Shown: positions 54,159-60,100 of the stretch, piece after piece
Layout of the letters: each line of letters opens with the position of its first letter
Position numbering within the stretch: the stretch's first letter is position 1
Assembly (NCBI GenBank): GCA_951406725.2
Contig: OX597817.1
Coordinates: forward strand, 73,098,001-73,162,000
Origin: Octopus vulgaris
Lineage: Eukaryota
DNA length: 64,000 bases
Direction: 5' to 3'
Program-made: the position numbers

Positions 54159-57100
54159 ATAATATAATCACAAAATTATAAATGCACTTATCTATCCTGA
54201 AGACTTTTAGGGTAATATTTCTGATGACATACACTGGTACATTGTGGTTATGTGTTTGAATTAGTATTGAAATTATTCAAGATTTTTAGTTGTAATAAAA
54301 TTTCTCATTAACTCGGGATTTTGGAATGTAACTTAACAAATATTTTTATACAAAACTAGCAGTATCGCCCGGCGTTGCTCAGGTTTGTAAGGGAAATAAC
54401 TATAAAGCATTTTTAGAGAGTTATAGCCAAAAAATAGCCAAAAAATGGAAAAAAATGATGGTATATTTTTTTGAGAGTTAAAAAAGGTGGAGTTGCGTCC
54501 CCTAGACAGTTTGTGGTTTGTGTTTCTGATTCTCGACCCCATGTCGAATTTATCGATTTTTTTCAGAACTGGGGGAACTTTACAAAATTTTCGCTGCGTT
54601 AGTTTTGAATTATGACATTGGGCTATGTGTGTGTCAAGTTTCATCAGAATCGGTTGAAAGCCGTGGTCAGGGTGAGGGTACAAGCAAACAGACACACAGA
54701 AACACGCACAGACAAACTGCCGTTTATATATAGAGAGATTATGATGAAAAGTTTTAAGTTTTCAATATGAAGACTTTAGTATTAGAAGTTTTTTAAATAA
54801 AAGAACCAGTGGCAGCCCAAAGCAGCTGGAGTGAAACAGATAACTCCTCCAAAAATAGTTGAAATTTCAATAGCTTCAAATTGATATTGTCCTTGTTCAT
54901 CTTGTTTCCTCTGTCGGGTTTATATGAAAGAAACACTAGCTTTGTGACTGATAATGAGCATTTGGATAGTGCTATGAAATCAGCTGTAACAAGGGAGGTA
55001 TTTTTAAGGTTATATATTTGTGAAAGAATTTAATGCATAACACTATTGTTGTGGCTAATGAGGAATATATATGCATTTAAATTGGCTCAGATATTCTACC
55101 ACTTTTATGTTCAATCCAGCCAGACCTGACTTCTCACACCTGCCTTACAATGTCATTCTAAAAATAAACAACCATATAACCAGTATCTCAAAGCTATGAA
55201 TAGTTGCCACTAGGATTAGTTACCAAAGCTCCGTCATTTAATGGTCTACAATCTTTAGAAGCAGGTGCACATCAGATATTATATGCTTCATAAATAAAAT
55301 TAAAAAATGGGTTGAATCATGAACAGGACAGTCAACTGGGTCACAATTGATGTGGGGCTAAACAACTTTGCAAGACTAAGTTATGTTTTCTCTTTCAGAA
55401 CTTTTTTCTTTCTCTTTTCATTTTATGATTTACAGATCTTTGTACATGTGAGGTTGTGCATGCACACACTCACATATATATATATGGCACAGTATGGTTA
55501 AGAATTTTGTGTTGCTATCTTGAAGTCTTGGGCTTGGTCCCACTGCGTGATACCTTGGCAAGTGTCATTTTCTGTAGCCACAGGTTAATCTATACTTTGT
55601 GATATTAACAGTATGGTGGTAGGGTGCAACAGGAACTTCATAGAAGCCCATCAGATAGATTGTAACTAAAATTCAAAGGTACACGTCTGTGGAATACTCA
55701 GCCACTTACATGCTAATCCAGTGAGCTTCGTAGTTTAGTTGATTGAATGGATGGAATTCTAAGATCCATTTATTTTATAAATCACATTGCGATTTTCAGC
55801 ATTAGGTCACAGCCACACAGTGTATTGCATGTTGTTCATTTTGCTTGTAAAGTTCTTTTGGTTGCTATGTTATGTCAGCTCATTAAGCACTTACAAGTGC
55901 CTATCTCCTAGATATACCTCCTAAAGTAACAGCTAGCATTAAGAAAATAAAATGGACAGAAAGTGGGAATATGAAAGGTATGTGTATTAAAATGAAATGT
56001 GAATCTAATTAATTTTTATCACTTTCAGCATTTCAGGCCTTTTGATGTCAATGTAAATGTTAGAACTTGAAAGAGTTTTAAAAAGCATCTTTTGGGTTTT
56101 TTTTTCTTTTTGTAAATTGCAAGGCAGTTGCAAGACTGCTCTCTTAGGTCAGGTGTTCTGATAAATTCTATACATTGATCTTTAAAAACCATATCAATTT
56201 AAAGCTCATATTCTTTCATAACTAACCTAGTTGGAAATAAATTATTTTTGCTATCTCCAGTCAAATACATGAACTTTTTCAGTTTTCTTTTATTTTCTTT
56301 TTAAATATTTCCTTATAATTAAAATAGGATTTTGTTGAATTTATTTTATGTTTTATTGAGGTTTTGGTTTTGTTAGATAACCATCATTATTATTAGTATT
56401 TTGTAAGATGACCTTTATAATTTGTTTGCAATTCTAACTTGTGCTGTTTACTATTCTACAGCCCATGTATTTCCAAGCAAGCCAACAGCAAAGGATCTCC
56501 TGAACCAGCCTCTCAATCAATTTACGGATTACACTCCATTTTTGACGGATTGGCTCTTAATAATGAGCGGACCAAAACTGCTGCAGGTCAGGTGGGGTTG
56601 TCTAGTTCTACTGCCCATTCAGGGTTACTGCCACCTCTCATAGACCGCCCTTACACACCCATCCTGTCCTGTAGCACAGCCAGTGTCAGCAATGCGGTCA
56701 ACTGTGCGTTGATCTCATCATCATCGTCATCATCATCATCATGTAAAGACTCACAAAACTTTGACTACAACTGCAACAAGGAAACAGTAACACATTGCAA
56801 ATGGAAAAACTGTGATATCGTCTTGGACCCCGACTTGCTTATGGCACATATTCGTGAGAAACATGTTGAGAGTCAAGAAGGTAGTGAAACATATGTATGC
56901 TTTTGGGATGGTTGTAAGGTGTATGCGAAACGCTCTTGCTCCATGTCATGGCTTGAGCGGCACATTCTCAGTCACAGTGGCGACAAGCCATTCAAATGCA
57001 TTGTTGATGGCTGCGATATGCGTTTCCCATCACATCATGGTCTTGAAAGACACGTTAATAGCCATTTTAACACACAACAGCCTACTGCTCCCAAACCACC

Positions 57101-60100
57101 TAAGTTAAGGGAAGATACTCCAACCAAATTATGGAAAAAGAAGAAAATGAAGAGGAAAAGACCTCAATTGGGTAAGTTTAAAAATTAGTTTTATTATAAT
57201 TTTCTTTTAGCTTTAATTTACCTCTCGTCATAACAGTTGTATTTTTTTTTTGTTGTCTCTTCCAGTCTTTTTTCATTTCAGGATTTTTTTCACATTTTGA
57301 CAATTTGTCTTTTGTTCTTGTGGAATTTGTCTGGTGCTTTGGAGAGTTGTTGTAACAGCATAGTTTTTTTAGTTATTGGTTGAGATTTAAATATATATAT
57401 ATACTAGCAGTATCGCCCGGCGTTGCTCAGGTTTGTAAGGAAATAACTATAAAGCATTTTTAGAGAGTTATAGCCAAAAAATAGGAAAAAAATGATGGTA
57501 AATTTTTTTTGATAGTTAAAAAGGTGGAGTTGCGTCCCCTACACAGTTTGTGGTTTGTGTTCCTGATTCTCGACCCCATGTCGAATTTATCTATTTTTTT
57601 CAGAACTGGGGGAACTTATCAAAATTTTCGCTGCGTTAGTTTTGAATTATGACATTGGGCTATGTGTGTGTCAAGTTTCATCAGAATCGGTTGAAAGCCG
57701 TGGTGAGGATGAGGGTACAAGCAAACAGACACACAGAAACACGCACAGACAAACTGCCGTTTATATAGAGAGAGATATATCAGTTCTGTAACTTCAAAAC
57801 ATCTGTTTGGTCCAGGAATTTTCCTTGCAGCTAATTCTTCAATTTCTTACGTAAAATAGTCATTGTAGTTTTTTAATATTGACATTATTTTCTGATTTTT
57901 TATATTTGTATTTCGGGTGAAAGTATTTTCATATTTTTTTGTTTCTGTTCACTTGAATAACGAAACTAAAGAGATTTTTTTAGACAGAATTATTGAAATA
58001 CTGGTGGCATACGCATAAGTTCGAATAGCCATTGTTTTGTATCACCTTTTCCCCTAAAGAACAGTTTCTTCTTGTGTCTTCAAGTAGTTACCTCAACAAG
58101 ATAAATTAAATGCTCTGTTTCCTGTTGACTACTCAGGTAGAAAGAAAATAACAACACAGAGAGTTAAACATTTGCAAGAAAATTATCATAGAATAAGTGG
58201 ACGTAAACTAGCATTTTTATTTTTTAATCATTCTTAAAAAAGGAGAATGCATTGATATTTATTCCCCACTTGTTTTTTTATTTTCCACCTGTGTTAATAC
58301 ATGCTCTCTTTGAGGCGATAAATGATCCTCTTCATGGTGGTCCAACTTGGAAGAAAGATGAACTTCCTCAAATCCTGCTTTATTATATGGGATATGTAAA
58401 TATAAAGGCCACATTGGATAATGTAATCCTAGATATATATGAAAAAATTGGTGAGATTGTCAAGGTAGGAGCATTTTTCGTTATAGGTCTGCTCCATCAC
58501 AGCTAAACAATAACATCTTTCCTCTGCCTAAATTTTCCAGAAGAAATCAATACAAATATTAATCGTTATCCTATGTTTATGACTTACTGCTAGTTATTAA
58601 TAATACTTGAAGCAACAGTATAATTTAAAAGATGGAATATTTCATAGAATCAACCATTATTTTTGCTCAGCAAAAAAGAAAACACAAAAAAAGCAATAAT
58701 CTTGATATTTTTATTTCATATATTTTATAAAATTCCATGTTTTGCTTTGAGTAAATTCTTTCAGGTTATTTTATATTAATTCCTGAAGCAATAACAATAC
58801 AATGCTCTCACATTGTTGCTTTATTTTACTCATATCTAAAGGGCAGTAGAGCATTGAAAATGTTGCAGGGTTTGTGATATGTAGTTACATCCTTTTACAT
58901 CACTTCATTTCACTTCAAATGATAAATATAATTACTAGTAATGCAGTTGGGATATTTCGGTTCAATTTAATTGATCACTATAAAGTTTTGGTCTTGTCGT
59001 AATGTAAGAGACAATATGTTGATTATAGTGAAAGATCAGTGGAGTGGCAAAAATGGTAGAGCAATGATCATAACAGTATTTAGCTTTGTACATTGATATT
59101 CTTTCAAATTCCACCACTATTGACTTTGATTTTCATCCCTTTGAGATCCATAAAATAAATACTAGAAGTTTGGAAGAGATGCACTTACAACTTAAGATCT
59201 AGTTTGTGTCTAACCCTTTTGCATCATTTCACATATGCCACTTATCTAATGTTCTTCGAATTGACATGAACATCACATCCCATTCACATTTTACTGCAGA
59301 TTTGAAGTTTTGTATTCTTATGGCAGTTGTGGTGATCAATAAGAAGTAACCTTGCAGTATGCCAAGAATTTTACCTGGTTTCATTACTTGGTATAAGATC
59401 TTTATGCTAGCCATGCATTTGATAGTGTCATTAATGTTCCCCAGAATCATTCCTTTCGCTCCAGATTTTTAATTATTGTTCTTAGCACCATGCTGTACTC
59501 CATTTAAAAACTCATTCCAGCCTTGACCATCCCGTTTTGTTATGTTTTATTTAGGCATAGTACATATATGATCGCATTATTTACAGTATTGGTCTTTTTT
59601 TAATTTCTTTAACACAATATAGCATTCTTTGACAGGTATTTAGTTGTTATTTTTCGGATTGAGTTACTGCATAGAAGCTTAGAAATTCGTCATAAGTTAG
59701 CCGTGTTTTTCATAGAATTGTCTCCATTCATACATTGCTTTTTACATTTTCTTCAGAGTTCTATATAGGCAGAGGTGTGGCTGTGTGATAAGAAGTTTGC
59801 TCCCCAACCACATTGTTCTGGGTTCAGTCCCACTGCATGACACTTTGGACAGGTGTTTTCTGCTATAGCCTTGGGCCAACCAAAGCCTTGTGAGTGGATT
59901 TAGTAGATGGAAATTGAAAGAAGCTTGTTATGTGTGTGCATGGCGGGTGGTGGTGGTAAAAAATACTGAGGTCAATTTATTCAACCAAAAACCCATTCAT
60001 GATGATAACCCCATCATGGCAGCAGTCTAATGACAGAAACAAATTGAAGATAATAAAATATATTTAGTGAGTTCTCTTACTAAAAATATAATATTTAAAA

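What the first reader, a model, noticed from the sequence alone, without database searches (positions are those of the whole stretch)
54356..57775. AEBP2 zinc-finger exon bracketed by twin same-orientation Helitrons: a potential 3.4-kb composite rolling-circle unit
Seen: the only two copies of this element that I found in 64 kb lie on either side of the one large coding exon, both on the minus strand. They differ by only about 10 substitutions and a few short indels (counted by eye). Read on the minus strand, the block starts with the TC end of copy 2 (57775), crosses the whole exon with both splice sites, and ends at the hairpin-CTAG of copy 1 (54356). Established: Helitrons capture flanking host DNA by bypassing their 3' terminator and stopping at a later one, and direct repeats also template unequal recombination. 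Inference: this could mobilise, duplicate or delete a complete three-finger chromatin-binding module, a possible route to C2H2 exon shuffling in a lineage known for C2H2 expansion. Two independent chance insertions of an abundant family remain the simplest alternative.
Basis: partly seen in the sequence, partly recalled or inferred. Interest (0 to 1): 0.72.

Follow-up and report, generated by a model that had tools for sequence, protein, structure and literature searches.

The report
Two young Helitron-like insertions flanking AEBP2 exon
Two near-identical copies of a short rolling-circle-type (Helitron-like) transposon sit in the introns on either side of the zinc-finger exon of an octopod AEBP2 gene, and nothing in the sequence suggests they are more than two ordinary insertions.

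Summary
Copies at 54356-54738 and 57404-57775 are direct repeats. On the minus strand each reads A|TC...CTAG|T. They differ by 10 substitutions and 4 indel events and have no third copy in the 64 kb. Between them lies a 710-nt exon (56462-57171, + strand) with AG and GT splice sites. It encodes the three C2H2 fingers of AEBP2 and is 97% identical to Argonauta hians AEBP2-like protein. It sits in native gene context behind a 66-nt exon at 30411-30476.

The Helitron label is supported by the termini, the A|T target, and the lack of target-site duplications or terminal inverted repeats. The "hairpin" is weak and no better than shuffled sequence.

The "composite unit" is only a possibility allowed by a known mechanism; no result shows that it has moved. 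Three things count against it:
- The inner terminator of copy 2 is identical to copy 1's over its last 37 nt.
- The exon is not phase-symmetric (phases 2 and 1).
- No close stand-alone copy of the module appears in the protein sets.

The host genome could not be searched, so family abundance is unknown. Verdict: ordinary young intronic transposon insertions, low interest.

The parts
54356..54738 (-). Helitron-like non-autonomous element, copy 1 (383 nt). On the minus strand the 5' TC is at 54738-54737 and the 3' CTAG at 54359-54356. Flanked by A (54739) and T (54355). Lies in the 26-kb AEBP2 intron, 1723 bp upstream of the exon.
   Evidence: alignment, termini, flanks; weak 3' hairpin; no Pfam, Rfam or protein relatives
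57404..57775 (-). Helitron-like non-autonomous element, copy 2 (372 nt), with the same TC...CTAG ends and A|T flanks. Lies 232 bp downstream of the exon's GT donor, in the next AEBP2 intron.
   Evidence: (the 142-aa frame of copy 1 is broken here into 51 and 75 aa)
56462..57171 (+). AEBP2 exon (710 nt). It encodes a Ser-rich stretch, three C2H2 fingers and a Lys/Arg-rich tail. AG acceptor at 56460-61, GT donor at 57172-73. Upstream intron is phase 2, downstream intron phase 1.
   Evidence: translation; PDB: the 7 best of 79 matched sequences are AEBP2, E 3.2e-35 to 5.5e-28; zf-H2C2_2 and zf-C2H2, below Pfam cut-offs; 97% identity to Argonauta hians AEBP2-like X1
30411..30476 (+). Preceding AEBP2 micro-exon (66 nt), with AG at 30409-10 and GT at 30477-78. 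It shows that the finger exon is in its native gene, collinear with the A. hians protein.
   Evidence: tblastn, P0002 residues 180-201, 91% identity, E 3e-7
54739..57403 (.). 2665-bp host segment between the two copies (35% G+C). It holds intron sequence, one old MITE fragment (55085-55200) and the exon. It has no second copy in the window apart from that MITE fragment.

Best explanation
The window is part of the AEBP2 gene of an octopod close to Argonauta hians. Two copies of one young, roughly 375-bp, non-coding, non-autonomous element of the canonical Helitron type (HLE1) have inserted separately. Each went into its own A|T site, in the same orientation and antisense to the gene, into the introns on either side of the zinc-finger exon. 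They were presumably mobilised in trans by a RepHel-encoding relative elsewhere in the genome (inferred, not seen). They are now passive intronic passengers.

Shown: the repeat pair, its termini and flanks, the exon, its identity and its gene context. Inferred: rolling-circle origin, separate insertion events, and recent age. Pairwise JC distance is 0.027, about 0.014 per copy. On the Octopus vulgaris scale of JC 0.09 for roughly 25 My, that is a few million years.

The pair could in principle be used as a composite by read-through, or could recombine. Nothing indicates that either has happened.
For: - Termini: 5' TC, 3' CTAG, A before and T after in 2 of 2 copies, and no target-site duplication. 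These match the HLE1 definition in PMC11417382 (passages). Composition-based chance is about 2e-5.
- No inverted repeat joins the two ends in either copy: 0 of 12 pairs in copy 1 and 0 of 15 in copy 2. One 9-nt TA-rich pair in copy 2 half lies in flank and is absent from copy 1.
- The element looks non-coding. There is no tRNA and no Rfam match. The 142-aa frame has no Pfam hit and no protein relatives, and it is broken in copy 2.
- The flanks of the two copies are unrelated, so each is its own insertion.
- This is the youngest repeat in the window. It is 92.8% identical over 403 nt, against 69.6-78.0% for the other 12 pairs of 80 nt or longer.
- Helitrons are present and recently active in another octopod: 1.02% of the O. 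vulgaris genome, 84 families, 8 recently active (PMC13282606, passages and a supplement passage). The two copies cover 1.18% of this window.
- The exon is native. It is collinear with exon 30411-30476 and with the A. hians AEBP2 protein.
Against: - The 3' hairpin expected of a canonical Helitron is marginal: -2.7 kcal/mol, z +0.2 to +0.4.
- With only two copies, the boundaries rest on where similarity stops.
- No autonomous partner, empty site or family consensus could be examined, because no tool here holds cephalopod DNA.
- If the family is rare, two copies 3 kb apart would be unlikely as independent hits and would point to local re-insertion. An average O. vulgaris Helitron family covers only about 0.012% of the genome (my arithmetic).
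Confidence: 0.7

Rival explanations
1. Local re-insertion. One copy is the direct daughter of the other, having transposed about 3 kb along the same chromosome. The proximity and shared orientation would then not be a coincidence of an abundant family.
For: - These are the only two copies in 64 kb, and they lie 3048 bp apart on the same strand. P is 0.040 for two random placements.
- The pair is very similar, at 97.3% over ungapped pairs.
- If the family is of average size for an octopod Helitron family (84 families share 1.02% of the O. vulgaris genome), an independent second hit within 3 kb would be rare (my arithmetic).
Against: Family copy number in this genome is unknown. The P value is post hoc and modest. 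The 10 substitutions and 4 indels fit two descendants of a common master equally well. I recall no evidence for local hopping of Helitrons.
Confidence: 0.15
2. Not a Helitron. The repeat would be another kind of interspersed element (an unclassified SINE or other non-autonomous repeat) whose ends look like TC...CTAG by accident.
For: The subterminal 3' hairpin is no better than shuffled sequence. Structure-based Helitron calls are known to give many false positives (PMC11417382 passage). Only two copies define the ends. The + strand end runs into a (TA)n(GA)n-like tail.
Against: - All four terminal or target features are met in both copies, with joint chance about 2e-5.
- There is no target-site duplication.
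- There is no tRNA-like or other RNA-family head.
- There are no terminal inverted repeats.
Confidence: 0.1
3. Functional composite. The 3420-bp block (copy 2, exon, copy 1) is, or has been, mobilised as one rolling-circle unit by read-through of copy 2's 3' end. This would spread the AEBP2 three-finger module.
For: - The geometry is right. Both copies share a strand, with an outer 5' TC at 57775 and an outer CTAG at 54356.
- Read-through capture is demonstrated for Helraiser and becomes more frequent when the hairpin is missing (PMC4778049 passages). The hairpin here is weak.
- Chimeric Helitrons with several termini are described (PMC5148889 passages).
Against: - No second copy of the inter-element segment exists in the window.
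- The protein searches found no close stand-alone copy of the module. In the 130-415 aa class, 0 of 28 hits exceed 68% identity. The only hits of 78% or more are full-length AEBP2 proteins.
- The inner and outer 3' ends are identical over 37 nt, so the terminator of copy 2 is as good as that of copy 1.
- The exon is in its native gene.
- The exon length of 710 nt is not a multiple of 3.
Confidence: 0.03

Closest known systems
Canonical non-autonomous Helitrons (HLE1 / Helitron1), such as the HelibatN families of bats and Helitron-N families in Repbase (those names recalled)
   Same: 5' TC, 3' CTAG, insertion between A and T, no target-site duplication, no terminal inverted repeats, short and non-coding (definition from PMC11417382).
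   Different: The subterminal 3' hairpin is very weak. The family's autonomous partner and copy number could not be examined. No captured host fragment is detectable inside the 375 bp.
Read-through (3' end bypass) gene capture and composite or chimeric Helitrons (Helraiser experiments, PMC4778049; Fusarium FoHeli, PMC5148889)
   Same: Two same-strand copies with host DNA between them are the substrate that these models need.
   Different: In those cases a transduced or chimeric product was actually recovered or found as extra genomic copies. Here there is only the substrate, with an intact inner terminator and no product.
Helentron / HLE2 non-autonomous elements (HINEs, DINE-1-like), common in molluscs (commonness recalled)
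   Same: Short, non-coding, rolling-circle-type elements found in introns.
   Different: HLE2 elements have 11-18-nt terminal inverted repeats and insert between T and T (PMC11417382). This element has no such repeats and sits between A and T.
AEBP2 (PRC2 accessory subunit; called Jing in Drosophila, name recalled)
   Same: The exon product aligns to human AEBP2 residues 224-387 across all three fingers and the basic tail (E 3.2e-35). It is 97% identical to the A. hians AEBP2-like protein.
   Different: Nothing unusual. The N-terminal low-complexity part differs from the vertebrate protein, as expected.

Membership tests
Canonical Helitron (HLE1) | 5' end begins with TC | tested here: met
   Both copies begin TCTCTC on the minus strand.
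Canonical Helitron (HLE1) | 3' end is CTRR | tested here: met
   Both copies end CTAG.
Canonical Helitron (HLE1) | Insertion between A and T, without target-site duplication | tested here: met
   A precedes and T follows in 2 of 2 copies. The flanks are unrelated and not duplicated.
Canonical Helitron (HLE1) | Short stem-loop just upstream of the CTRR end | tested here: inconclusive
   Only a 4-bp plus 3-bp interrupted stem, at -2.7 kcal/mol. 124 of 200 and 109 of 200 shuffles fold as well.
Canonical Helitron (HLE1) | No terminal inverted repeats | tested here: met
   No inverted pair joins the two termini in both copies.
Canonical Helitron (HLE1) | Termini shared with a RepHel-encoding autonomous element | not testable with these tools
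   No RepHel in the window. Of the 11 frames of at least 110 aa, all 11 were scanned against Pfam. Only the AEBP2 frame gave matches, and those were zinc-finger families. The host genome is not searchable here.
Canonical Helitron (HLE1) | Empty (pre-insertion) sites in paralogous or orthologous DNA | not testable with these tools
   No cephalopod DNA collection is available.
Helentron / HLE2 | 11-18-nt terminal inverted repeats and a T|T target | tested here: not met
SINE | Pol III-type head (tRNA, 5S or 7SL derived) and target-site duplications | tested here: not met
   0 tRNA genes found. No Rfam match in the element at E up to 1 or at gathering score in the window. No duplication of flanks.
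Transduced / composite Helitron | Additional genomic copies of the host segment bounded by the outer TC and CTAG ends | not testable with these tools
   None in the window. Weak proxy: no close stand-alone protein copy. The genome search could not be run.
AEBP2 | Three tandem C2H2 fingers followed by a basic stretch, orthologous to the PRC2 cofactor | tested here: met
   The C-terminal domain (Pfam PF26014 in the hits) lies in exons outside the window.

The most novel reading that the evidence does not exclude
The pair is a working composite Helitron. Because the family's 3' hairpin is so weak, its terminator is often bypassed. Copies of the antisense AEBP2 three-finger exon, bounded by these TC and CTAG ends, would then exist elsewhere in the argonaut genome. 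That would be a live example of Helitron-driven movement of a C2H2 module in a lineage with C2H2 expansion.
Probability: 0.03. Interest if true: 0.6.

Novelty: new member of a known kind. Interest (0 to 1): 0.14.

Why it matters
As it stands it matters little. Young non-autonomous Helitron-type insertions in introns are routine in octopod genomes, and a same-strand pair around an exon is expected now and then. The useful products are:
- a clean pair of termini for an apparently recently active Helitron-like family in an argonaut-like genome;
- the exon structure of its AEBP2 gene;
- a concrete, cheap genome-wide test of whether this family transduces flanking DNA.

It would become interesting only if extra copies of the inter-element segment were found.

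Tried and rejected
- I looked for other copies of the element family through the protein collection, using the 142-aa stop-free frame of copy 1. Two candidates shared words and none scored. This says nothing about copy number. It only shows that the frame is no known protein.
- Rfam and ARAGORN searches for a SINE head found nothing.
- LTR-like reading (two direct repeats around an internal part): rejected. The internal part is a native host exon with its introns, there is no TSD around the block, and no coding frame other than the exon.
- Segmental duplication: rejected, because similarity stops exactly at the element ends.
- Pfam scan of the other 9 frames of at least 110 aa, looking for a RepHel: 0 of 9 had a hit.
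- The two argonaut genome papers (PMC9635652, PMC12682272) were searched for 'Helitron': 0 occurrences in each.
- PMC8967140 was seen only in search listings, because my find call had a malformed term and I did not repeat it.
- Repbase and Dfam are not available here, so I could not check whether this family already has a name.
The host genome therefore stayed unsearched.
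Full report
**1. The observation**

The stretch 54000-58200 holds two direct repeats. The repeat finder, MAFFT and a global alignment place them at 54356-54738 (383 nt) and 57404-57775 (372 nt), with start-to-start spacing of 3048.

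They differ by 10 substitutions (2 transitions, 8 transversions) and 4 indel events of 1, 1, 10 and 1 nt. That is 361 identical of 384 columns, or 97.3% over the 371 ungapped pairs, with JC distance 0.027. The 10-nt indel is one extra unit of a short internal tandem in copy 1.

blastn of both copies against the whole window (word size 7, E up to 10) found only the self hits and the reciprocal hit. All other matches were 37 nt or shorter and lay in low-complexity stretches, so there are two copies in the 64 kb.

A self-comparison of the window listed 13 repeat pairs of 80 nt or longer. This pair is 92.8% identical over 403 nt. The other 12 are 69.6-78.0% identical, so this is by far the youngest repeat here.

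**2. The ends**

On the minus strand both copies begin TCTCTC directly after an A and end ...GCAACGCCGGGCGATACTGCTAG directly before a T. The flanks beyond these points are unrelated apart from AT-richness, and nothing is duplicated.

From the window's base composition, the joint chance of TC, CTRR, and A and T flanks in both copies, on either strand, is about 2e-5.

No inverted repeat joins the two ends. 12 pairs in copy 1 and 15 in copy 2 were examined. One 9-nt TA-rich pair in copy 2 lies half in the flank and has no counterpart in copy 1.

These are the features that define canonical Helitrons (HLE1). They exclude the Helentron/HLE2 type, which has terminal inverted repeats and a T|T target (passages of PMC11417382).

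One expected feature is weak. The subterminal 3' stem-loop is only a 3-bp GC stem nested in a 4-bp stem, at -2.7 kcal/mol as DNA. 124 of 200 shuffles (copy 1) and 109 of 200 (copy 2) fold at least as well.

**3. Content of the element**

- No Rfam family matches it at E up to 1.
- No family reaches gathering score anywhere in the window.
- ARAGORN finds no tRNA-like gene.
- Copy 1 carries a 142-aa stop-free frame. It has no Pfam match and no relatives in the protein collection (2 candidates, none scored). In copy 2 it is broken into 51 and 75 aa.

The element looks non-coding and non-autonomous. The window has no RepHel gene. Of the 11 frames of at least 110 aa, only the AEBP2 frame has Pfam matches.

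**4. The exon**

The longest frame of the window (56421-57188) contains an exon at 56462-57171, with AG at 56460-61 and GT at 57172-73.

I searched its translation on its own. I made no joined, spliced model and searched none.
- Against PDB sequences, the 7 best of 79 matches are human AEBP2 chains (E 3.2e-35 to 5.5e-28). They align over the three fingers and the basic tail. GLI comes next at 7e-17.
- Pfam sees zf-H2C2_2 and zf-C2H2, both below their cut-offs.
- In the large protein collection the best hit is "zinc finger protein AEBP2-like isoform X1 [Argonauta hians]", at 97% identity over 99% of the query. Two unnamed entries follow at 84% and 78%, then bivalve, gastropod and brachiopod AEBP2 (18 hits among 389 candidates).

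The window therefore comes from an octopod close to, but apparently not identical with, that A. hians record. Nothing in it looks human.

tblastn of the A. hians protein against the window places residues 180-201 at a 66-nt exon, 30411-30476 (AG and GT present), and residues from 202 onward at the finger exon. The residues after the exon are not in the remaining 6.8 kb. The exon is therefore in its native gene, behind a 26-kb intron.

The upstream intron splits a codon after its second base, and the downstream intron splits one after its first base. The exon is 710 nt, which leaves remainder 2 on division by 3.

**5. Geometry**

- Copy 1 lies 1723 bp upstream of the exon.
- Copy 2 lies 232 bp downstream of it.
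- The segment between the copies is 2665 bp, and the whole block is 3420 bp.
- Both copies are antisense to AEBP2.

**6. Is the pairing more than chance?**

For two copies placed at random in 64 kb, a spacing of 3048 or less has P = 0.081, and 0.040 with the same strand also required. That is modest and post hoc.

The true null depends on the family's genomic density, which I could not measure.

For scale, Helitrons make up 1.02% of the Octopus vulgaris genome in 84 families. They expanded at JC about 0.09 (roughly 25 My), and 8 families are recently active (PMC13282606, passages and a supplement passage). The two copies cover 1.18% of this window.
- An abundant family would make such pairs common genome-wide.
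- A family of average size would make this pair unlikely as two independent hits, and would suggest local re-insertion. I keep that as a rival at 0.15.

**7. The composite idea**

The mechanism is real.
- Helraiser bypasses its 3' end and transduces flanking DNA, more often when the hairpin is deleted. Natural bat Helitrons show de novo 3' ends (PMC4778049 passages).
- Chimeric Helitrons with several termini are described in Fusarium (PMC5148889 passages).
- Tandem arrays are mentioned in PMC5876387 (passage).

The arrangement here is a possible substrate, and the weak hairpin would, on that model, favour bypass. But no result shows use of the substrate, and several points argue against it:
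- The inner 3' end (copy 2) is identical to the outer one (copy 1) over its last 37 nt.
- No second copy of the inter-element DNA is in the window, apart from an old MITE fragment.
- In the 130-415 aa class of the protein collection, 0 of 28 hits to the exon product exceed 68% identity. This is weak evidence, because unannotated copies would not appear there.
- The exon is not phase-symmetric, so a transposed copy could not be spliced in frame into a single intron of another gene.
That would probably be a strongly deleterious allele (inference).
- The longest uninterrupted identity between the copies is 85 nt.

**8. Verdict**

These are two separate, recent, intronic insertions of a non-autonomous Helitron-type element around a native AEBP2 exon. 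My confidences are:
- this reading: 0.70
- local re-insertion: 0.15
- not a Helitron: 0.10
- a composite that has actually moved: 0.03

The kind of element and the proposed mechanism are both in print. The specific family may be unnamed, which I could not check without Dfam or Repbase. Interest is low (0.14).

The decisive tests are genome-wide BLASTN of the element and of 54739-57403, and comparison with the orthologous introns in sister octopods.

**Papers**

I saw passages only (find calls) of PMC13282606 (plus one supplement passage), PMC11417382, PMC4778049, PMC5148889, PMC5876387, PMC9635652 and PMC12682272. PMC8967140 appeared only in search listings. The following are recalled, not taken from a call: typical animal Helitron 5' motifs, the Repbase family names, the Drosophila name Jing, the commonness of Helentrons in molluscs, and the piggyBac label for the MITE.

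Noticed in passing
2-213, 1356-1578, 6917-7128, 23092-23239, 38883-39092, 55085-55200: An old repeat family of about 250 bp (70-78% identity), with 6 copies or fragments in the window. Full copies start TTAACCCTT... and end ...AAGGGTTAA, that is, terminal inverted repeats next to TTAA. It looks like a piggyBac-type MITE (label recalled, not tested). One fragment lies between the two Helitron-like copies.
   Followed up: partly
30411-30476 (+): A 66-nt AEBP2 micro-exon, 26 kb upstream of the finger exon, with AG and GT splice sites. It matches residues 180-201 of the A. hians protein (91% identity).
   Followed up: yes
54084-54161 and 55455-55486: (CA)n/(TA)n microsatellites. The first lies about 200 bp from copy 1's CTAG end. 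TA-rich sequence also directly abuts copy 2's CTAG end (57389-57403).
   Followed up: no
32507-32900 and 48648-49132: Two local pairs of direct repeats: 164 nt at 78% identity with spacing 231, and 126 nt at 75% with spacing 361. They were seen in the window self-comparison and are of unknown nature.
   Followed up: no
56700-56735 (+): A run of nine serine codons (TCA/TCG) in the AEBP2 exon, just upstream of the first finger. It is also present in the A. hians protein.
   Followed up: no
35776-35919 / 59781-59924, 37432-37569 / 51583-51712, 39967-40108 / 62813-62954: Three further pairs of old inverted-orientation repeats (71-77% identity, about 140 nt). They were not classified.
   Followed up: no
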